This document shows, piece by piece, positions 1,451 through 10,260 of a stretch of DNA of 10,364 bases; the first letter of the stretch is position 1; every line of letters begins with the position of its first letter. The position numbers were made by a program, and so were the translations under genes. The notes beneath the pieces were generated by a model. That model saw only the letters and a program-made list of their open reading frames with translations. It was not told the DNA's origin and did not search any database. Location: the IMG/VR virus record IMGVR_UViG_2657245521_000008; one strand, given 5' to 3'. The stretch comes from a virus (Duplodnaviria > Heunggongvirae > Uroviricota > Caudoviricetes).

Positions 1451-1503
1451 GTGTACATAGAGGTGTACATAATGACTTTCATGTACATTGCTTTATGTAC
1501 ACC
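1451..1503. promoter_or_regulatory. Cluster of four palindromic TGTACA hexamers upstream of int; candidate integrase arm-type or AlpA/Vis-type binding sites within the int promoter region
   Basis: TGTACA occurs at 1452-1457, 1464-1469, 1482-1487 and 1496-1501. The first two copies are within an identical 9-mer gtgtacata and the last two share atgtaca. A CATAAT -10-like hexamer at 1468-1473 overlaps the cluster. Confidence 0.4.
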
Positions 1504-1530
1504 CCCATATTCGATATTCAGGTATTCGCA

Positions 1531-2784
1531 ATGCCAAAACTCACAGATATGCAGATCCGCGCATGGATAAAGGCGGGAGACAGATTTGATGGCAAGGCAG
1601 ACGGCAACGGCCTTTATATTTGCTACCCCAAAAACTACACAGTCCCGTTCTGGCGATTCCGCTATAAGCTCGCAGGAAAGCAGCGGGCTATGGTTATAGG
1701 CTCTTACTCCGAACTGTCACTATCAAAAGCCAGAGAAACAGCAAAAGAGCTGTCAGCCAGAGTTGCTCTTGGCTATGACGTAGCAGCAGAGAAACAGGAA
1801 CGAAAAGCTGAAGCACTGGCAAAAATGGAGGCTGAGAAAAACGCCATGCGTGTTTCAGATCTGGCCTCCGAATACTTCGAGCGCCAGATACTTCCGAGAT
1901 GGAAACATCCCGATATCCTTCGCCGGAGAATTGATAAGGATATTAACCCCTGCATTGGGCATATGAAGGTAGAGGATGTTAAGCCACGCCACATTGACGA
2001 CATGTTGAAAGGTATCGTTGACCGAGGAGCACCAACGATAGCAACAGATGTATTACGCTGGACACGCCGTATCTTTGACTATGGGATAAAACGCCACGCT
2101 CTGGAGATAAACCCTTGTTCAGCGTTTGAAGTATCTGATGCTGGTGGTAAAGAGGTTTCCCGCGACCGTTGGCTAACTCGCGATGAGCTTATCAGGCTAT
2201 TCGAGGCTATGCGCACCGCAAAAGGATTCAGCCGCCAAAACGAACTGACATTTAAACTATTGCTGGCACTATGCGTTCGTAAGATGGAGTTATGCGCCGC
2301 ACGATGGGAAGAGTTTGATTTAGATGGTGCGGTATGGCATTTGCCGGAAGAACGCAGCAAAAACGGAGACCCTATTGATATACCTCTACCTTCCCCAGCC
2401 GTTGAATGGTTGAGAGAGCTACACACCTTTTCATGTAATAGCGCATGGGTGCTTCCGGCCAGGAAGATGCAAAACAGAATGATCCCACATATTCAGGAAA
2501 GCACTTTACCCGTAGCACTGGCTAAGGTTCGCGCCGAAATGCCGGATGTGCCTAATTTCACGATTCACGACTTCCGACGCACCGCACGTACTCATTTAGC
2601 AGCATTGGGTGTTGATCCTGTCGTGGCGGAACGATGCCTCAATCATCGCATTAAGGGCGTAGAGGGGATTTATAACCGTCATCAGTATTTTGATGAGCGT
2701 AAAGCAGCACTGGCACAGTGGGCAGATCTGCTGGTGGCACTGGAAAGCGGAAAAGACTACAACGTAACGCCAATCAGAGCATGA
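1531..2784 (+). CDS. int: Tyrosine-type site-specific integrase, P4-like family (417 aa from the ATG at 1531)
   Basis: N-terminus MPKLTDMQIRAWIKAGDRFDGKADGNGLYICYPKNYTVPFWRFRYKLAGKQRAMVIGSY matches the P4/CP4-57 integrase arm-binding domain pattern. The C-terminus contains HDFRRT, LNH and YNRHQY, consistent with the catalytic R/H/R/Y region. The track ORF starts further upstream at 1447, but that extension has no family resemblance and overlaps the TGTACA repeats. Confidence 0.85.
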   Translation: MPKLTDMQIRAWIKAGDRFDGKADGNGLYICYPKNYTVPFWRFRYKLAGKQRAMVIGSYSELSLSKARETAKELSARVALGYDVAAEKQERKAEALAKMEAEKNAMRVSDLASEYFERQILPRWKHPDILRRRIDKDINPCIGHMKVEDVKPRHIDDMLKGIVDRGAPTIATDVLRWTRRIFDYGIKRHALEINPCSAFEVSDAGGKEVSRDRWLTRDELIRLFEAMRTAKGFSRQNELTFKLLLALCVRKMELCAARWEEFDLDGAVWHLPEERSKNGDPIDIPLPSPAVEWLRELHTFSCNSAWVLPARKMQNRMIPHIQESTLPVALAKVRAEMPDVPNFTIHDFRRTARTHLAALGVDPVVAERCLNHRIKGVEGIYNRHQYFDERKAALAQWADLLVALESGKDYNVTPIRA

Positions 2785-2802
2785 TGAGAGGAAAGATTCA
2801 TA

Positions 2803-3753
2803 ATGAAATTACCTGCGCATAAATATTATTCTTTGGATAAAGCAGCCAAACTGGCCGGATGTGAAGTATCCGATTTAATACACTATGCAGCAATTGGGGT
2901 TTTAGAAATATGTATAAAAATTCCACCTATTGAATTGTTTTACCATTACCCAAAAAATGAAGATGCCGAGCCAGAATTACTTAAAGTTGAAACGGATAGT
3001 ATTTTTCATATAGATACAAAAGCAGCACATGAGAATTATCTCCTTGATCTGAGCAATAAGGCAGATAATCTCGAATCATATGGCTTATCATCACTTGATT
3101 ACAAAAATAGCGATAACTATATGTATTTTATGAGGTTTTCATACAAATCAGAACATTTCTCAGTTATAGAGCGATACAATGTTGGGAAGGATGAAAGAGA
3201 TATCGAAAGATGGAGCGGTCTATTAGCAATTCCGCCTGCGTTCATAGATAACGATGAGCGGGAGCTATCAGAATGGGATGATTGGGAGATCTCTGTATGC
3301 GAACTGATGCCTCCGAGATGTGACGAGTTTAGCAAATCGAATAATTATGAAATCGGAGCTTTTTATATTGACGGCTGGTATGAAATAAGCCGAAACAAAA
3401 TGTATATAACTGACTATGAATACAATCTTCTTATAAATGGAGGAAAATATATTTATGACAGACCCATGCACAAACCATCCGCAAACAAGTTATCCAATGA
3501 TATAAATACGCTAAAAGTTAATAAACGTGCCGAACGGTACGCAGTCAATAGGGAGAAACTATTAAAATCTGCAATTTATATACTTAGTAAGTATCCAAAT
3601 GAATGCAGGGGAGAAAGGAAAGAAATAAGCCCTGAGAAGTGGCGTGACTGTCTTGTTCGTCATTTAGACGAAGTTCCACCACTTATGATAACTAATGAAG
3701 ATGTAATTCTTAAACATCTACGATCTGCGGCAAATGGCAAAGTGGATAGTTAA
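2803..3753 (+). CDS. Hypothetical protein (316 aa), AT-rich cargo gene of unknown function; candidate accessory or anti-phage gene
   Basis: Complete ORF with a GAGAGGAAAG Shine-Dalgarno-like stretch 8-12 nt upstream, starting 18 nt after the int stop. Two 60-nt lines counted by hand give roughly 30-37 percent G+C, against about 55 percent in a sampled int line. The protein is rich in Y/K/N/E/D/I and I recognise no domain. Confidence 0.7.
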   Translation: MKLPAHKYYSLDKAAKLAGCEVSDLIHYAAIGVLEICIKIPPIELFYHYPKNEDAEPELLKVETDSIFHIDTKAAHENYLLDLSNKADNLESYGLSSLDYKNSDNYMYFMRFSYKSEHFSVIERYNVGKDERDIERWSGLLAIPPAFIDNDERELSEWDDWEISVCELMPPRCDEFSKSNNYEIGAFYIDGWYEISRNKMYITDYEYNLLINGGKYIYDRPMHKPSANKLSNDINTLKVNKRAERYAVNREKLLKSAIYILSKYPNECRGERKEISPEKWRDCLVRHLDEVPPLMITNEDVILKHLRSAANGKVDS

Positions 3754-3763
3754 CTTACTATAG

Positions 3764-3790
3764 AGGTACTGCAAAATTACAGTACCTTTT
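3764..3790 (+). terminator. Putative intrinsic terminator after the cargo gene
   Basis: Perfect 8-bp inverted repeat aggtactg (3764-3771) / cagtacct (3780-3787) around an 8-nt loop, followed by a short T-run (TTTT at 3787-3790, first T within the stem). The stem is AT-rich and the U-tract short, so moderate strength. Confidence 0.45.
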
Positions 3791-3793
3791 CAT

Positions 3794-3807
3794 TGTATAT
3801 CTATACA
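3794..3807. promoter_or_regulatory. 14-bp palindrome TGTATATCTATACA upstream of alpA; candidate operator
   Basis: TGTATA (3794-3799) and TATACA (3802-3807) are exact reverse complements separated by TC, about 50 nt upstream of the alpA ATG. It shares the TGTA half-site with the TGTACA cluster upstream of int. Confidence 0.3.
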
Positions 3808-3859
3808 GCTAGATTTCTCGTAACGAAGCAACAACTATCGCTAAGAGGTTACGGGAATC

Positions 3860-4063
3860 ATGAACATCGACACTATCCCTACAAAAGGCTATATCAGACG
3901 CTTTCGCCTGGCTGAATTGCTGGGCGTTAGTGTATCCACCATCGACCGTAAAGTAAGAAACGGTTCACTACCACGTCCGGTAAAGCTGGGAGAAAAAATA
4001 ACTGCGTTTGATGCGGTTGAGATTCACAACTGGCTGGCAGAACGCCGCGGGAAGGTGGCCTGA
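3860..4063 (+). CDS. alpA: AlpA-family phage transcriptional regulator / excisionase-like DNA-binding protein (67 aa)
   Basis: MNIDTIPTKGYIRRFRLAELLGVSVSTIDRKVRNGSLPRPVKLGEKITAFDAVEIHNWLAERRGKVA fits the AlpA/Vis pattern of a short helix-turn-helix followed by the LP.P.K.G and W motifs. Size and position after int match CP4-57 and PICI alpA. Confidence 0.8.
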   Translation: MNIDTIPTKGYIRRFRLAELLGVSVSTIDRKVRNGSLPRPVKLGEKITAFDAVEIHNWLAERRGKVA

Positions 4064-4494
4064 TGGAAAAGAAAAACCGCCCATTACAGGCGGCTAATTC
4101 AGATATTCGCGTATCTGATGTTACGCCCCTTACAAAATCCCTTCAAGCACCAAAGCGCACACCGAAAAAGCATCGTGCCAGAGTCTATATGCTGCGTACT
4201 GGTATAGAGGGATGGACAGAAAATGACATTCTTCGCTACTGCCGTCTGTCTTCTGGTCGTAACTATGCAACAGAGTTAGAACGCCAGCTTGGAATCACTC
4301 TGGAGCGTATCGACGAAAAGAATCCTGATGGTATCGGAACACACCTTCGCTACCGTTTCTCCTGCCGTGGTGATGTTCTGAAAGTGATCACTCATATTAA
4401 CCATCTTGCGAACATAAATGATCACAACGGACTTTCTCAGCCGGAAATTGCCGACATTCTGAAACTCTACCCGGACGCGTTTAACGCCGCTTAA
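4063..4494 (+). CDS. Hypothetical protein (143 aa), basic N-terminus; possibly DNA-binding
   Basis: Start ATG overlaps the alpA stop (TGATG), and an AAGGTGG Shine-Dalgarno sits just upstream. The protein reads plausibly but I recognise no family. Confidence 0.6.
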   Translation: MEKKNRPLQAANSDIRVSDVTPLTKSLQAPKRTPKKHRARVYMLRTGIEGWTENDILRYCRLSSGRNYATELERQLGITLERIDEKNPDGIGTHLRYRFSCRGDVLKVITHINHLANINDHNGLSQPEIADILKLYPDAFNAA

Positions 4495-5340: not shown

Positions 5341-5512
5341 GCCAACAGGAACACCACAACCACAAAAACGCTACAAAGATGCCCACGGAGCACTCGTTAC
5401 TGTCGAAAGCGTGTCTCACAACCGAGTGACGTTTTATCGCGACGGGTATCAATCGCCATGCGTACAACCGCTGGCACGTTTCATGAAGGAGTTCGCGGAG
5501 GTTAACCAATGA
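5333..5512 (+). CDS. Small hypothetical protein (59 aa) translationally coupled to the antirepressor gene
   Basis: The ATG at 5333 is preceded by GGAGG (5322-5326) with a 6-nt spacer, and overlaps the upstream stop (caATGtcTAA). The track ORF 5246..5512 is the same frame, but its upstream part lies inside the antirepressor gene with no ribosome-binding site. Confidence 0.5.
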   Translation: MSKPTGTPQPQKRYKDAHGALVTVESVSHNRVTFYRDGYQSPCVQPLARFMKEFAEVNQ

Positions 5513-6576
5513 TACCCGTCCAGAAGAAGACATTTTCACTGGCTGGTATGTCGCCAAAATCCAGCAATATGACGGCAAAGTCAGGCATTAATACAGCAGA
5601 TGCAAGCAAAGTTTATCATTTGCTGGTGGTCGGAACGGATGCCTTAACCATACCAGAAATCACGGGCGATGATGTTAGCGTTGAGAAGGTCAGCGGCTGC
5701 GCCAGAGAATTTCTGGTCGTAGATGACCTGTTCTGCTCGTGTAGTGACTCCACAAAAACATTCGTCCACGCGCGTGACGTTAACGAAATGAGCGCGATGT
5801 ACTGTGCTTCTGGTTCTTCCAATAGTGAGTTTTCGGAGTCCATAAAAAAGAGCTTGCCGTTATGCGGCAACACGGTTTATGGTTATAAGGCACCTCATAA
5901 AACGGGTGCCGGGATTGGCGTCCTGGTAAATCGAATGGCGACATATGACGCGCCGAGCGTCTTTTTTTATGTCGTAGGTCTGACTCACCCATTTTTTGGG
6001 CGTTGGTGTATAATCCAGCGCCTTTGTCAATCAATGGTGGCTCAGGCAGGGGCTTCTTCGGAAGCGCCGGTATCCATTCGAGCCGGTTACGCCAACCCTG
6101 TCTGGGCTACCACCAGCGAAATTGGCGTTTCCGGTGGTAGCGTTACATGCTATCGAATGGAGGCTGCCACATGCTGGCTACTACCCCTACCCAAAAACCG
6201 CAATTTATCTGGATTATCGCCGCAGTTCGCCGCGATTGCCCGACAATTACCGCCAAAATTCATCATATTGCTGCCGAGTCTGAACGCGATGCTCGCCGTT
6301 CTCTGGTGCGCGATCACATCTGCTTTTTTGCTGGTCGTATCCGCATGGAGGTGGCACATGATTAAAACCTACGATGTGCATATGGATCCCCTCGAACGCA
6401 CAAGCCAGATCATCACACTGACAGAAGTGATTAACGACATTCTGGTGAGCAACTCTCCCTCACGAGACGAAAGACTAAAGGCGTTACTCGCGATATTGGA
6501 TCTCGCCGTTCGTGACGTTCATTTCCTGCTGGAAGGTGGACAAATGCCATGCAAAACGGGGGCAACCAATGAATAA
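5509..6576 (+). CDS. Hypothetical protein as the stop-free ORF (355 aa); integrity doubtful, possibly a fusion of an upstream gene, a non-coding control region and a separate 72-aa gene starting at 6358
   Basis: GGAGG (5497-5501) lies 7 nt before the ATG at 5509, which overlaps the upstream stop (ATGA). No stop occurs in this frame until 6574-6576. However, 5947-6170 carries terminator, promoter and hairpin features, and in 6171-6357 this frame uses rare codons (cta, tta, cga, agg, ata) while another frame looks genuinely coding. An internal ATG at 6358 has its own GGAGG. Confidence 0.4.
5947..5968 (+). terminator. Terminator-like hairpin with a 7-T tract, lying inside the 355-codon ORF
   Basis: gacgc (5947-5951) pairs with gcgtc (5957-5961) around a 5-nt loop, then TTTTTTT at 5962-5968. 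Stop codons occur in the other two forward frames right here (TGA at 5946-5948, TAG at 5975-5977). Confidence 0.3.
6009..6014 (+). promoter_or_regulatory. Perfect TATAAT -10 hexamer (no clear -35), about 160 nt upstream of the ORF at 6171; candidate promoter for the small-gene/primase operon or for a leader RNA
   Basis: TATAAT at 6009-6014 is immediately preceded by TG and sits in an otherwise GC-rich stretch, about 40 nt downstream of the terminator-like hairpin. Confidence 0.3.
6171..6365 (+). CDS. Small hypothetical protein (64 aa) in a different frame from the 355-codon ORF
   Basis: GGAGG at 6159-6163 lies 7 nt before the ATG at 6171. Codons are typical of E. coli genes (ctg, gct, acc, ccg, atc, gcc, cgc, gat, gtg). 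The stop overlaps the next start as ATGATTAA at 6358-6365. The track shows this frame as 6147..6365. Confidence 0.45.
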   Translation: MLATTPTQKPQFIWIIAAVRRDCPTITAKIHHIAAESERDARRSLVRDHICFFAGRIRMEVAHD

Positions 6577-7241: not shown

Positions 7242-7836
7242 TTTCTTAACTTTCCATGCAGAAGCAACGCCTGACGGCGTAAACATCATGTACCGCAGCA
7301 ACGATGGCATGACAGAACGCGTTGAGACCGTCTCATATATTGATGCCGCAAATCGTCTGGATGCCGGGGATTATGACGATAAACCAGATGAAGGCATGTT
7401 TATACATCTCGCTATTGCCAGTGGCGGCAACCAGGGATATTTCGATTACACATCACAGCATCACGTGATTATGTGGCGCTGGCTGATAGCAACAGCATTC
7501 ATCAATGAAATGAGAAAGGAAAACGGCACCGTCAGCATTATTGATGACAGTGGCAATCATTCCGTGGTTTCTGTTTATTCCAATGGCATCGTCGCCATGC
7601 CGCTGTATCCAGTAGCAGAGCGCCTCGCTATGGCAAACAACATTGAGGGCGCAATGATCGAGAAATATGGTGTTGATGTCGGAACAAATAATGCCATCAT
7701 TTTTTACAGCAACATGTTCGATGTCGAACAGGGAACACTCACTTCGTTTGGGCGAGAAGTGCTTGCCGATCTTCACAACAGCTTTATTGCCGAACTAAAC
7801 GAAAACGGCATCCCAGAAGCACCAGTGACGCACTAA
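7234..7836 (+). CDS. Hypothetical protein (200 aa) immediately upstream of the primase gene
   Basis: The ATG at 7234 is preceded by GAGG with a 6-nt spacer. The track ORF starts at 7129, but that extension overlaps the upstream gene in another frame. No recognisable domain. Confidence 0.62.
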   Translation: MNNFLTFHAEATPDGVNIMYRSNDGMTERVETVSYIDAANRLDAGDYDDKPDEGMFIHLAIASGGNQGYFDYTSQHHVIMWRWLIATAFINEMRKENGTVSIIDDSGNHSVVSVYSNGIVAMPLYPVAERLAMANNIEGAMIEKYGVDVGTNNAIIFYSNMFDVEQGTLTSFGREVLADLHNSFIAELNENGIPEAPVTH

Positions 7837-7848
7837 ACGGGGGCCAGA

Positions 7849-10260
7849 ATGCGAAACATTGATCTTATCCGTCAGGTTATCAGTGCGTCTGAAAACAACT
7901 GGCCTCATGTGCTGGGCTGCCTGAACATAAATGTCCCTGACTCTCCGCGCCGTCATGCTCCCTGCCCTGCATGTGGGGGCAAAGATCGATTCCGGTTCGA
8001 TGACAACGGGCGCGGTAGCTTCATCTGTAATCAGTGCGGCGCTGGTGATGGGCTGGATTTAATTAAACGCGTAAATAACTGCGACACAACAGAGGCGGCG
8101 CTGCTTGCCGCTGATGTTCTGGGTATTGATTACCGGACAACGGAAACACCAGAAGCCACCAGCCAGAAACGGGAACAACTGGAAACCGAGCGCCAGCGAC
8201 GCGAACAGGAGCGCCTGAAAAGGGCGGAGAAGGACGAACAACAAAGACGGGATACGTTTTCCCGTCAGTTTGATGACATGCGCAGAAAGGCTGTAAACGG
8301 CAAATCTGATTATCTGGTTGCGAAAGGGGTAGGTGATTTTACATTCCCCGTGTTGCCCGATGGATCTCTGTTGCTGGCGCTGGTGGATAAATCCGGCGCA
8401 GTCACAGCAGCACAGACTATTACCTCACATGGTGAAAAAAGACTCCTGACAGGTTCAGCAAAGCGGGGGGCATATCACGCCATAAACGCACCAGAAACAA
8501 CACAGAGCATCTTAATCGCAGAAGGGCTGGCAACGGCATTATCTGCCCATTTAATTCGTCCAGAGGCGCTGACAGTGGCGGCGATTGATGCCGGGAACCT
8601 GTTATATGTCGCCCAGGTACTGCGGGATAAATTTCCTTCAGCACAAATCATCATTGCTGCGGATAACGACCACAGCGAAGGAAGACAAAACACGGGGAGA
8701 ATAGCAGCAGAAAAAGCAGCTTTATCTGTTTCTGGATGGGTGGCATTACCCCCGACAGGTCACAAAGCAGACTGGAATGATTACCACCAAAAACACGGCA
8801 TTAAATGCGCCACAGAAGCGTTCAATAAGTCAATGTACCAACCACAGGGTAATGGCGTGAAACAGGAGCCACAGACCATTGAGGGAAGCGATTTTAAGGT
8901 TATGGATACCGACCCACTGAAACCAAGAATAGAAAGCCGCGAGGATGGTATTTATTGGGTATCTCCGAGAGCTGACAGCCAGAGTGGAGAAATCATCAAT
9001 AACGAAAGCTGGTTATGTTCTCCGTTAAGCGTTATCGGTACTGGCAGAGACGATAAAGACCAGTATCTCATTCTTCGCTGGCTGTCGTTTGGTTCTGAAA
9101 CGCCGACAACCGCTGCCATTCCACTGGCTGATATTGGTGAACGTGAAGGATGGCGCACACTTAAAGCTGGTGGGGTAAATGTCACGACCAAAAGCAGCCT
9201 CAGAGCAATACTGGCAGACTGGCTACAACGCAGTGGCTCTCGTGAATTGTGGCGTGTTGCTCATGCCACTGGCTGGCAATGCGGAGCGTACATCATGCCT
9301 GATGGGGAAATCATCGGAACACCTGAAAATCCTGTGCTGTTCAGCGGGAGAAGCTCAGCCGCAGCCGGATATACCGTCTCAGGGAGCGCGAAAAGCTGGC
9401 GTGATAACGTGGCGCGTCTGGCCTTTGGTAACTATTCAATGATGACCGGGATCGGCGCAGCACTGGCAGCGCCATTGATTGGGCTGGTGGGCGCTGACGG
9501 GTTCGGCATTCATTTCTATGAGCAGTCGAGCGCGGGTAAGACCACCACGGCAAACGTGGCGAGCAGCTTATACGGCAACCCTGATTTACTGCGGCTGACG
9601 TGGTACGGAACCGCGCTGGGGCTGGCAAATGAGGCCGCCGCCCACAATGACGGATTAATGCCGCTTGATGAAGTTGGTCAGGGCGCTGATCCTGTCAGCG
9701 TTTCACAGTCTGCCTATGCGTTATTTAACGGTGTAGGGAAACTGCAAGGCGCTAAAGATGGTGGAAACCGGGATCTAAAACGCTGGCGTACAGTGGCAAT
9801 CAGCACCGGAGAAATGGATTTAGAAACATTTATCGCTACTTCCGGGCGAAAAACCAAAGCCGGGCAACTGGTGCGACTGCTGAATATTCCGTTGAGTAAA
9901 GCAGTACGCTTTCACGATTACCAGAACGGAAAACAGCACGCAGACGCACTGAAAGACGCTTACCAGCATCACCATGGCGCAGCCGGGCGTGAGTGGATTA
10001 AATGGCTGGCAGACCACCAGCAACAGGCTATTAAAACTGTTCGTGATTGCGAAAGCAGATGGAGAAGCCTGATCCCATCCGATTATGGTGAGCAGGTTCA
10101 CCGTGTAGCCGCGCGATTTGCCATTCTGGAGGCCGCATTGTTGTTAGGCGAGGTTGTAACAGGCTGGGATGCTCAGACATGCCGTGATGCGATACAGCAC
10201 AGCTATAACGCATGGTTGCGCGAGTTCGGCACAAGTACGTGGGAACCGTGGTCGGGTTAA
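7849..10260 (+). CDS. Primase / replication initiation protein (803 aa): N-terminal zinc-binding primase motif, Toprim domain, C-terminal NTPase/helicase-like domain (P4 alpha / PICI Pri-Rep type)
   Basis: CPACGGKDRFRFDDNGRGSFICNQCGAGDGLDL at residues 38-72 is a Cys4 primase zinc-ribbon motif. ILIAEGLATALSAH ... IIIAADNDHSEGRQNTGRIAAEKAA at residues 221-290 is Toprim-like (E ... DxD). A P-loop-like SSAGKTT lies at residues 560-566. GGGGG Shine-Dalgarno precedes the ATG. Confidence 0.9.
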   Translation: MRNIDLIRQVISASENNWPHVLGCLNINVPDSPRRHAPCPACGGKDRFRFDDNGRGSFICNQCGAGDGLDLIKRVNNCDTTEAALLAADVLGIDYRTTETPEATSQKREQLETERQRREQERLKRAEKDEQQRRDTFSRQFDDMRRKAVNGKSDYLVAKGVGDFTFPVLPDGSLLLALVDKSGAVTAAQTITSHGEKRLLTGSAKRGAYHAINAPETTQSILIAEGLATALSAHLIRPEALTVAAIDAGNLLYVAQVLRDKFPSAQIIIAADNDHSEGRQNTGRIAAEKAALSVSGWVALPPTGHKADWNDYHQKHGIKCATEAFNKSMYQPQGNGVKQEPQTIEGSDFKVMDTDPLKPRIESREDGIYWVSPRADSQSGEIINNESWLCSPLSVIGTGRDDKDQYLILRWLSFGSETPTTAAIPLADIGEREGWRTLKAGGVNVTTKSSLRAILADWLQRSGSRELWRVAHATGWQCGAYIMPDGEIIGTPENPVLFSGRSSAAAGYTVSGSAKSWRDNVARLAFGNYSMMTGIGAALAAPLIGLVGADGFGIHFYEQSSAGKTTTANVASSLYGNPDLLRLTWYGTALGLANEAAAHNDGLMPLDEVGQGADPVSVSQSAYALFNGVGKLQGAKDGGNRDLKRWRTVAISTGEMDLETFIATSGRKTKAGQLVRLLNIPLSKAVRFHDYQNGKQHADALKDAYQHHHGAAGREWIKWLADHQQQAIKTVRDCESRWRSLIPSDYGEQVHRVAARFAILEAALLLGEVVTGWDAQTCRDAIQHSYNAWLREFGTSTWEPWSG

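What the first reader, a model, noticed from the sequence alone, without database searches (positions are those of the whole stretch)
2803..3790. AT-rich orphan cargo gene between int and alpA: candidate novel single-gene accessory or anti-phage function
The 316-aa ORF is much more AT-rich than every neighbouring gene: two hand-counted 60-nt lines give about 30-37 percent G+C, against about 55 percent in a sampled int line. It starts 18 nt after the int stop and is closed by its own hairpin terminator at 3764-3790, so it looks like a self-contained insert carried by the element. Satellites and PICIs are known to carry variable cargo, often defence genes, next to their integrase. I recognise no domain. 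The N-terminal 40 residues (YYSLDKAAKLAGCEVSDLIHYAAIGVLEI) could form a helix-turn-helix-like fold, and the rest is rich in acidic and aromatic residues (EWDDWE, DYEYNLL).
Basis: partly seen in the sequence, partly recalled or inferred. Interest (0 to 1): 0.75.

Follow-up and report, generated by a model that had tools for sequence, protein, structure and literature searches.

The report
Swappable unknown gene in satellite's integrase-side slot
The AT-rich 316-residue gene is a real, exchangeable one-gene cassette between the integrase and alpA of an E. coli P4/PICI-type phage satellite; it belongs to a large uncharacterised mosaic protein family seen only at this position, and it is a plausible but unproven phage-conflict gene.

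Summary
ORF 2803-3753 (316 aa) starts 18 nt after the int stop, has 36% G+C against 49% for int, and is followed by a hairpin plus U-run at 3762-3790.

It is not an orphan. It belongs to a family of at least 647 clusters (50% identity) with no Pfam, NCBIfam or PADLOC match. The protein has four parts:
- an N-terminal domain with a winged-helix fold;
- a hypervariable, strongly acidic, beta-rich middle;
- a disordered linker;
- a C-terminal helical domain under strong purifying selection.

Every family member whose context I sampled lies in an int -> gene -> alpA -> primase island. The gene is a true cassette. Elements with 99%-identical int and alpA carry unrelated genes in this slot, and the same allele sits in backbones whose int is saturated at synonymous sites.

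All 29 surveyed sibling slots hold one co-oriented, AT-rich gene. None of those scanned matches a known defence family.

The element already has P4-type immunity RNAs (isrK and C4). That argues against this protein being the master repressor.

My best reading is a constitutively expressed phage-conflict (defence-type) accessory protein, at confidence about 0.4. A helper-sensing regulator of alpA remains a live rival. The function is unproven.

The parts
1531..2784 (+). P4-type tyrosine integrase: left conserved anchor of the slot
   Evidence: Pfam Arm-DNA-bind_3, Phage_int_M and Phage_integrase. The RefSeq homologue has the same start. Homology to sibling elements ends at 2778.
2779..3818 (+). 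Exchangeable cassette, as delimited against sibling elements with 98-99%-identical flanks
   Evidence: blastn breakpoints: left edge 2778 in L002, L003 and L004; right edge 3819 (L003), 3873 (L004) or 3547 (L002). The reverse case: the same allele in divergent backbones, with a shared tract of about 2730-3940.
2786..2795 (+). Shine-Dalgarno-like GAGAGGAAAG upstream of the ATG
   Evidence: Read directly from the sequence. No sigma-70-like promoter was found on the + strand in 2500-4200, so co-transcription with int is inferred.
2803..3753 (+). CDS of the 316-aa slot protein (stop codon included)
   Evidence: ORF list. Annotated as hypothetical protein WP_000775207.1 in a 99.8%-identical locus. 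Purifying selection: whole-gene dN/dS 0.18-0.46.
2803..2946 (+). N-domain (aa 1-48), winged-helix / HTH-like fold
2947..3387 (+). Hypervariable acidic beta-rich middle domain (aa 49-195)
   Evidence: Alignments A1 and A2. Net charge -19, family median -16. No fold match. In the 88%-identical variant P0002, 29 of the 38 substitutions fall here.
3388..3447 (+). Conserved strand-plus-helix motif (aa 196-215; I202 and L210 nearly invariant)
   Evidence: Alignments. Retained in distant relatives as DLVLPRAELEKAYELL.
3448..3522 (+). Low-confidence, probably flexible linker (aa 216-240)
   Evidence: AF2 pLDDT below 50 for residues 216-242. Variable in the alignments.
3523..3750 (+). Conserved C-terminal helical domain (aa 241-316)
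   Evidence: 19 invariant columns across 59 sequences. Codon position 2 is 0.85-0.96 identical and position 3 only 0.43-0.53. Present in 137 of 201 family proteins. No structural or sequence relative.
3762..3790 (+). Hairpin plus U-run, a probable intrinsic terminator that insulates alpA from int-cassette transcription
   Evidence: RNA fold -13.6 kcal/mol, z = -4.2. Inverted repeat found. Conserved with compensatory changes in L002 and L005. It lies inside the cassette.
3860..4063 (+). alpA (satellite activator): right conserved anchor of the slot
   Evidence: Pfam Phage_AlpA, 2e-08. An AlpA-like ORF follows the family member in nearly all loci sampled.

Best explanation
The gene is the cargo of a one-gene exchangeable slot, immediately downstream of int and upstream of alpA, in a P4/PICI-type phage satellite integrated next to yicC.

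Proposed mechanism, with each step marked:
1. Expression (inferred). The gene is expressed in the quiescent, integrated state, probably co-transcribed with int. Its own terminator stops that transcript from reading into alpA, which would otherwise switch the satellite on.
2. Architecture (shown). The protein is a single-chain modular sensor. A small winged-helix N-domain and a conserved strand-helix motif are the conserved elements on either side of a hypervariable, very acidic, aromatic-rich beta domain.
3. Specificity module (inferred). The acidic beta domain is the specificity module. It most likely binds a basic, nucleic-acid-binding protein of an incoming or induced phage.
4. Output module (inferred). 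A flexible linker tethers a strongly conserved 75-residue helical domain. This is the output or partner-binding module, and it acts on something that does not vary between elements or host genera.
5. Net effect (inferred, untested). Interference with competitor phages, that is, a defence-type accessory function that benefits the satellite and its host.
6. Diversification (shown). Alleles diversify by recombination of whole cassettes and of individual domains, not by point-mutation arms races.
For: Element type. The order is yicC | int | gene | alpA | PM1773-family gene | AntA | ash | Toprim/DUF927 primase. P4-type isrK and C4 RNAs lie inside the ash region.

Cassette behaviour.
- Sibling E. 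coli elements with Int 98-99% and AlpA 98.5% identical carry slot proteins that are 20-33% identical in the N-domain, 17-22% in the middle, or are unrelated.
- The left breakpoint is sharp, at 2778.
- Conversely, the same allele (dS about 0.05) sits beside an int with dS of 1.3-1.4 and an alpA with dS of 0.87. The exchange tract ends inside int and alpA.

Composition. Slot genes are AT-rich in 29 of 29 loci.

Unrelated occupants. At least two unrelated families occupy the slot (hhalign probability 0.1%), plus several smaller ones.

A real, selected protein. dN/dS is 0.18-0.46. The C-domain is conserved at the protein level while its synonymous sites are saturated. The AF2 model has mean pLDDT 79.

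Expression logic. An 18-nt gap with an SD-like sequence, no promoter hit, and its own terminator.

Against a core life-cycle role.
- The element has its own P4-type immunity RNAs.
- The model PICI EcCICFT073 appears to have alpA as ORF2, meaning no slot gene, yet it is helper-inducible (PMC6092414).

Literature base rates.
- PICIs carry immune systems at their 5' end (PMC11364771).
- In P4-like satellites the int-adjacent hotspot is almost never empty, and 6 of 8 unknown-function loci taken from it protected against phages (PMC13586616).
Against: - There is no similarity to any known defence protein or effector domain, and no enzymatic domain is evident.
- None of the slot genes scanned from about 33 related elements matches PADLOC or Pfam. 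P4 hotspots hold recognisable defence genes in 73% of elements.
- The slot always holds exactly one co-oriented gene of 216-353 aa. That looks more like an allelic locus than a general cargo bay.
- The family was found only in int -> gene -> alpA -> primase islands in every context sampled. Defence genes usually move between different kinds of hotspot.
- No gene-wide dN/dS above 1 was found.
- No phenotype data exist.
Confidence: 0.4

Rival explanations
1. Helper-sensing regulator, a functional analogue of SaPI Stl. The protein keeps alpA or int silent, or gates their activation. Its variable middle domain binds a helper-phage protein, which couples satellite induction to the helper's lytic cycle. 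Alleles would then set helper specificity.
For: - Position between int and the alpA regulatory gene, and strict int -> gene -> alpA synteny in all sampled members.
- In L090 other cargo separates int from the gene, while the gene stays directly upstream of alpA.
- The slot always holds exactly one gene and never a recognisable defence system.
- The N-terminal fold is of the same class as AlpA and Xis.
- The layout of HTH, variable domain and conserved C-terminal domain parallels Stl (my own knowledge of Stl).
- How helpers induce alpA, and whether Gram-negative PICIs have a repressor at all, is stated to be unknown (PMC6092414).
Against: - The element already carries P4-type immunity RNAs, isrK and C4.
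- The gene is co-oriented with alpA and separated from it by a terminator, not divergently transcribed across an operator.
- The N-domain has no net positive charge, has an invariant Asp in the would-be recognition helix, and matches the AlpA profile only weakly at 11.6%.
- Alleles are fully decoupled from the int and alpA alleles and from the flanking DNA.
- Unrelated proteins fill the same slot.
- EcCICFT073 seems to lack a slot gene yet is induced by helpers (by inference).
Confidence: 0.23
2. Counter-defence or host-takeover factor. The very acidic middle domain acts as a DNA or nucleic-acid mimic, in the manner of Ocr or ArdA. It would neutralise host or rival-element DNA-binding defences, such as restriction or nucleoid proteins, and so help the satellite establish or persist.
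For: - The middle domain is consistently acidic despite its hypervariable sequence: median net charge -16, about 18% D/E, about 12% aromatic.
- The gene sits on a mobile element and is exchanged rapidly by recombination.
- The N-domain looks unsuited to binding DNA itself.
Against: - No fold similarity to known DNA mimics or anti-restriction proteins.
- The predicted domain is a beta-rich globule, not an elongated charge array.
- Probable constitutive co-expression with int in the integrated state suits defence better than entry-phase counter-defence (inference).
Confidence: 0.1
3. Recombination directionality or integration cofactor. An enlarged Xis-like protein would bind att arms or Int and control excision.
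For: - It lies immediately downstream of int.
- The N-domain fold resembles excisionases: Pukovnik Xis, RdfS and the GIsul2 AlpA-type excisionase.
Against: - Elements with 99%-identical int and att regions carry unrelated slot genes, and the same allele serves ints only about 30% identical or saturated at synonymous sites.
- The N-domain is not basic.
- AlpA already occupies the RDF-like role in this element class (PMC10111431).
Confidence: 0.05
4. Decaying or non-functional AT-rich insert that only happens to keep an open reading frame.
For: - No known domain.
- Atypical composition.
Against: - Intact in all 41 E. coli genomes that carry it.
- dN/dS 0.18-0.46.
- C-domain conserved at the protein level with saturated synonymous sites.
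- Confident AF2 fold.
- Hundreds of full-length relatives.
Confidence: 0.02

Closest known systems
Int-adjacent defence hotspot of P4-like satellites (Rousset 2022, PMC9122126; NAR 2026, PMC13586616)
   Same: - The variable locus is directly next to the P4-type integrase in a satellite that also has AlpA, ash with CI-type RNA, and an alpha-like primase.
- It is almost never empty.
- Cargo is swapped by recombination between otherwise similar elements.
- It holds many genes of unknown function, most of which protected against phages when tested.
   Different: - Here the slot holds only a single gene of 216-353 aa.
- None of the occupants scanned from about 33 elements is a recognisable defence gene, against 73% of elements in P4.
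- The right border is alpA, not the cos/psu side.
- The element lacks annotated psu, delta and sid.
5' accessory (immune) region of Gram-negative PICIs (Fillol-Salom 2022, as cited in PMC11364771)
   Same: The position at the int end of an int-alpA-primase island. The published claim is that this end carries anti-phage cargo.
   Different: That paper could not be read here, so I could not check whether this family was among the genes tested. PADLOC 2.0 has no model that matches.
SaPI/PICI master repressor Stl/Rpr
   Same: - A gene next to int, highly diverse between sibling islands.
- The layout of N-terminal HTH-like domain, variable partner-binding region and C-terminal domain.
   Different: - Co-oriented with the downstream regulatory gene and separated from it by a terminator, not divergent across an operator.
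- The N-domain is not basic.
- The element has RNA-based immunity (isrK and C4).
- No sequence or fold relationship is shown beyond the small wHTH.
AlpA / Xis / MerR-type winged-helix (Pfam HTH_17, Phage_AlpA)
   Different: - No Pfam hit in any of 24 members.
- hhalign probability is only 11.6%.
- The helix equivalent to the recognition helix carries an invariant Asp and no basic residues.
- The domain is fused to about 270 further residues.
yfjH, the gene between intA and alpA of E. coli K-12 prophage CP4-57
   Same: A single uncharacterised gene of about 318 aa occupying the int-alpA interval of the founding AlpA element.
   Different: Opposite strand, and no detectable homology (hhalign probability 0.4%).

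Membership tests
Variable accessory/defence hotspot cargo of phage satellites | Lies between conserved core genes that serve as recombination anchors | tested here: met
   Bounded by int and alpA. Breakpoints are at 2778 and 3819, or inside int and alpA at about 2730 and about 3940.
Variable accessory/defence hotspot cargo of phage satellites | Content differs between otherwise near-identical elements, and the same cargo occurs in divergent backbones | tested here: met
   Int 98-99% and AlpA 98.5% identical while the slot protein is 17-33% identical outside the C-domain, or unrelated. The same allele at dS 0.05 sits beside an int with dS 1.3-1.4.
Variable accessory/defence hotspot cargo of phage satellites | Atypical base composition relative to the backbone | tested here: met
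   0.36 against 0.49 in the window. Slot G+C is below int G+C in 29 of 29 loci.
Variable accessory/defence hotspot cargo of phage satellites | A sizeable fraction of occupants across sibling elements are recognisable defence systems | tested here: not met
   No PADLOC hit for the query or for 10 representatives covering all slot families. The only Pfam hit is an IS transposase.
Variable accessory/defence hotspot cargo of phage satellites | Confers resistance to phage infection when expressed | not testable with these tools
   Needs plaque and burst assays.
Known anti-phage defence protein families (PADLOC-DB 2.0) | Profile match to a defence-system component | tested here: not met
   Zero families at E <= 1.
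AlpA/Xis/MerR-type wHTH DNA-binding domain | Winged helix-turn-helix fold | tested here: met
AlpA/Xis/MerR-type wHTH DNA-binding domain | Sequence-profile membership (Pfam HTH_17, Phage_AlpA or MerR) | tested here: not met
   No Pfam hit at E <= 1 in 24 members. hhalign against an AlpA alignment gives probability 11.6%.
AlpA/Xis/MerR-type wHTH DNA-binding domain | Basic DNA-contacting surface or recognition helix | tested here: not met
   Median net charge of the N-domain is 0, range -7 to +4. D24 is invariant in helix 2.
Stl/Rpr-type satellite master repressor | Encoded next to int and diverse between sibling islands | tested here: met
Stl/Rpr-type satellite master repressor | Divergently transcribed from the lytic/regulatory operon across a shared operator region | tested here: not met
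   Same strand as alpA, with a terminator in between.
Stl/Rpr-type satellite master repressor | It is the element's immunity function, with no other repressor system present | tested here: not met
   isrK and C4 (the P4 CI/seqA-type immunity RNAs) at 5890-6117 score above their gathering thresholds.
Stl/Rpr-type satellite master repressor | Binds operator DNA and is released by a helper-phage protein | not testable with these tools
   Needs EMSA, reporter and interaction assays.

The most novel reading that the evidence does not exclude
The int-alpA slot is not a generic cargo bay. It is a dedicated 'specificity locus' of P4/PICI-type satellites. Its single-gene alleles, meaning this tripartite family and the unrelated 216-237-aa family, would be the long-sought sensors through which Gram-negative satellites detect particular phages. 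The conserved tethered C-domain would relay the signal to an invariant host or satellite component, either to switch on alpA or to abort the phage. This would explain four findings: the slot is always filled with exactly one gene, it never holds a known defence system, the family occurs nowhere else, and the alleles are shuffled independently of int and alpA.
Probability: 0.2. Interest if true: 0.85.

Novelty: new member of a known kind. Interest (0 to 1): 0.55.

Why it matters
If the protein is a defence gene, it adds a large and completely unannotated single-gene family, with at least 647 clusters at 50% identity, to the satellite-borne immune repertoire. It has no known effector domain, so its mechanism would be new.

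If it is instead the satellite's phage sensor, it would address an open question stated in the PICI literature: how Gram-negative islands couple alpA induction to a helper phage.

Either way, the tripartite design gives clear domain-swap experiments. The parts are a conserved scaffold, a hypervariable acidic domain and a tethered conserved C-domain. The natural allelic series in otherwise identical E. coli elements provides ready-made isogenic comparisons.

Tried and rejected
- Sequence libraries. Pfam, NCBIfam and PADLOC gave nothing for the query. PHROGs gave only unknown-function families, phrog_7144 and phrog_13283. A Pfam scan of 24 members gave only scattered chance hits.
- 'PM1773 family protein'. 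This looked like an annotation for the slot gene but belongs to the 143-aa gene after alpA.
- The 216-237-aa slot family as a distant relative: rejected (hhalign 0.1%).
- yfjH of CP4-57 as a relative: rejected (0.4%).
- C-domain conservation caused by a DNA-level element, such as the alpA promoter: rejected, because third codon positions are near saturation.
- Positive selection in the middle domain: not found. dN/dS is 0.22-0.47, and the uneven dS points to recombination instead.
- EcCIMP1_002, the slot gene of a studied PICI, is a small unrelated protein.
- Tai systems sit elsewhere in PICIs.
- My guess at the EcCICFT073 coordinates hit a lambdoid prophage and told me nothing.
- The Fillol-Salom 2022 Cell paper is not held.
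- Literature searches by protein accession and by 'FS_' system names were empty or off-target.
- The metagenome scan returned only close relatives.
- The phage database held one poorly annotated record with the same int-adjacent arrangement.

Full report
OBSERVATION

The window holds yicC (478-1341) and a P4-type integrase (1531-2784; Arm-DNA-bind_3, Phage_int_M and Phage_integrase). Next come the ORF in question (2803-3753, 316 aa) and alpA (3860-4063). Further along are a 143-aa gene, an AntA-family gene, a long 'ash' ORF and a Toprim/DUF927 primase.

The ORF starts 18 nt after the int stop, behind a GAGAGGAAAG Shine-Dalgarno-like sequence. Its G+C is 0.36 against 0.49 for int.

A 10-bp hairpin follows it: 3762-3771 pairs with 3780-3789, and a TTTT run lies at 3787-3790. 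It folds at -13.6 kcal/mol, z = -4.2 against shuffles. The window is 99.8% identical over this gene to E. coli chromosomes, for example strain SA186. The gene is present in 41 of 5,426 complete E. coli genomes, always on the chromosome.

WHAT THE PROTEIN IS

No Pfam, NCBIfam or PADLOC family matches. It is not an orphan, however.
- A word-indexed search found 61 relatives across Enterobacterales, all labelled 'hypothetical'.
- A profile search of 1.84 billion cluster representatives found 647 clusters at E <= 0.001, mostly 270-340 aa.

Alignments and an AlphaFold2 model (mean pLDDT 79) show a fixed chassis:
- N-domain (aa 1-48). Moderately conserved, with A14 and D24 invariant.
- Middle (aa 49-195). 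Hypervariable and beta-rich.
- Strand-helix motif (aa 196-215). Short and conserved, with I202 and L210 nearly invariant.
- Linker (aa 216-240). Low confidence.
- C-domain (aa 241-316). Helical, with 19 invariant columns among 59 sequences.

Of 201 retrieved relatives, 194 carry the N-domain and 137 the C-domain.

- Sequence-profile membership is not met: no Pfam hit in 24 members, and hhalign against AlpA gives only 11.6%.
- The domain has no net positive charge.
- It keeps an invariant Asp in the would-be recognition helix.

The middle and C-terminal domains have no structural or sequence relative. The middle domain is consistently very acidic despite its variability: net -19 here and a family median of -16, and it is aromatic-rich.

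SELECTION

In the C-domain, second codon positions are 0.85-0.96 identical between divergent alleles, while third positions are 0.43-0.53 identical. The conservation therefore acts on the protein, not on an overlapping DNA signal.

Among close E. coli alleles, dN/dS is 0.18-0.46 for the whole gene and 0.22-0.47 for the middle domain, against 0.04 for int. The gene is constrained, and there is no gene-wide sign of positive selection.

Variation is concentrated in the middle domain. In allele L115, dS jumps from 0.07 in the N-domain to 0.46-0.72 in the middle and linker. That is the signature of intragenic recombination.

Mosaic combinations confirm domain shuffling. They include the N- and C-domains with a foreign middle, the N-domain and middle with a foreign C-terminus, and the N-domain alone with other partners.

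THE SLOT

E. coli elements at the same yicC site have Int 98-99% and AlpA 98.5% identical to the window, yet they carry different genes here:
- a 321-aa family member with a different N-domain and middle;
- a 281-aa distant member;
- an unrelated 216-aa protein.

Homology breaks at 2778, six bases before the int stop. It resumes at 3819, 3873 or 3547 depending on the allele.

The reverse also occurs. Two genomes carry almost the same allele (dS about 0.05) beside an int with dS of 1.3-1.4 and an alpA with dS of 0.87. The shared tract ends inside int (about 2730) and inside alpA (about 3940). This is a cassette exchanged by homologous recombination in the flanking core genes.

I surveyed about 40 loci from other species with a related integrase. 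Nearly every one has a single co-oriented gene of 216-353 aa between int and alpA. Including the four E. coli alleles, these fall into the query superfamily (14), an unrelated 216-237-aa family (15; hhalign 0.1%) and a few small families. For 29 of the surveyed loci I compared G+C, and in all 29 the slot gene is more AT-rich than int. None of the representatives scanned matches PADLOC or Pfam, apart from one IS insertion.

CONTEXT OF THE FAMILY

Every family member whose locus I fetched, including very divergent ones, lies in an island ordered P4-type int -> member -> AlpA/HTH_17 -> primase. These islands sit at several chromosomal sites and have several primase types.
- A sensitive search found AlpA-like ORFs directly downstream in loci where gene calling had missed them.
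- In one metagenomic locus, about 4 kb of other cargo, including a toxin-antitoxin pair, separates int from the member, which still abuts alpA.
- The exceptions are a helper-embedded Enterobacter element where Bro-N follows and a poorly annotated 'phage' record.

ELEMENT BIOLOGY

Rfam finds isrK (5890-5967) and C4 antisense RNA (6030-6117) above their gathering scores, inside the ash ORF. These are the P4 CI/seqA-type immunity RNAs noted in Gram-negative PICIs (PMC10111431), so the island has a known kind of repression system.

The founding PICI paper states that a global repressor in Gram-negative PICIs is 'unclear' and that helper phages induce alpA by an unknown route (PMC6092414). In its model island the reporter is fused to 'ORF3' after alpA. 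That implies no gene between int and alpA there (my inference).

Other papers place immune cargo at the 5' end of PICIs (PMC11364771). For P4-like satellites, the int-adjacent hotspot is almost never empty, 27% of elements carry only unknown genes there, and 6 of 8 such loci protected against phages. However, 73% of those elements carry recognisable defence genes (PMC13586616).

INTERPRETATION

Shown:
- The gene is a real protein under selection.
- It is an autonomous cassette, decoupled from int and alpA.
- It has a modular sensor-like architecture.
- It probably forms a transcription unit with int, closed by a terminator that some related cassettes conserve.

Inferred: it acts in the quiescent state as a phage-conflict protein. 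The acidic variable domain would provide target specificity, and the tethered conserved C-domain would provide the output. I give this 0.4.

The main rival, at 0.23, is a helper-sensing regulator of alpA. The strict synteny, the one-gene rule and the absence of known defence genes in the slot all favour it. Against it stand the immunity RNAs, the co-orientation with an intervening terminator, the non-basic N-domain, the complete decoupling from flanking alleles, and the unrelated proteins in the same slot.

Lesser rivals are a counter-defence or mimic role (0.1) and an excision cofactor (0.05). A non-functional ORF is effectively excluded.

NOVELTY AND SCORE

The kind of thing, a variable int-proximal cargo slot in a satellite, is known. 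The protein family appears undescribed: no library match, and no paper found by accession.

I class it as a new member of a known kind, with interest 0.55. The more novel reading is that this slot is a dedicated phage-sensing specificity locus of Gram-negative satellites. The evidence does not exclude it (probability about 0.2), and it would be of high interest if true.

Noticed in passing
window 5890-5967 and 6030-6117 (+): Rfam isrK (67 bits, gathering score 50) and C4 antisense RNA (79.5 bits, gathering score 45) lie inside the long 'ash family' ORF (5509-6576). This is a P4-type CI/seqA immunity-RNA pair, so the island is a P4/PICI hybrid with RNA-based immunity.
   Followed up: partly
window 1451-1508: A cluster of GTGTACATA repeats lies just upstream of the int start (1531). 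There are two direct copies (1451-1459 and 1463-1471) plus inverted copies (TTATGTACAC at 1493-1502). These are candidate Int arm sites or an int-promoter operator. They lie in DNA shared by sibling elements whatever their slot allele.
   Followed up: no
window about 10240-10260: The primase ORF (7849-10260, 803 aa) diverges from its 918-aa SA186 homologue after '...AWLREFGT' and stops 10 codons later. This is an apparent frameshift, either a truncated helicase domain or a sequencing error. The window also differs from SA186 by a 39-nt indel; my alignment, which began at 7701, placed it at 7701-7739, so its true position was not resolved.
   Followed up: partly
L004:3897-4547 and 14 other loci (alignment A5): A second, unrelated and equally unannotated family of 216-237 aa is the commonest alternative occupant of the same int-alpA slot. 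It is also AT-rich and has no Pfam or PADLOC match.
   Followed up: partly
window 4063-4494: Newer RefSeq records name the 143-aa gene directly after alpA 'PM1773 family protein'. It is conserved across these islands, and Pfam gives only a weak winged-helix hit.
   Followed up: no
L090:3095-6867 and L031:6705-7475: Other DNA can enter between int and the family member. In one metagenomic island this is a TumE/HVO_A0114 toxin-antitoxin pair, an HTH_3 gene and an antiterminator-Q-like gene. In Symbiopectobacterium it is an IS (rve) transposase.
   Followed up: no
L118:4645-5601 (E. coli K-12 CP4-57): The int-alpA interval of the founding AlpA element also holds one uncharacterised 318-aa gene, yfjH. 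It is on the opposite strand and unrelated to the query family.
   Followed up: yes
L007/L008 (Enterobacter): A family member (P0019) sits in an island inserted among prophage late genes (terminase, portal, Mu-F). It has a different integrase (30% identity) and a Bro-N gene in place of alpA, which looks like a helper-embedded PICI.
   Followed up: no
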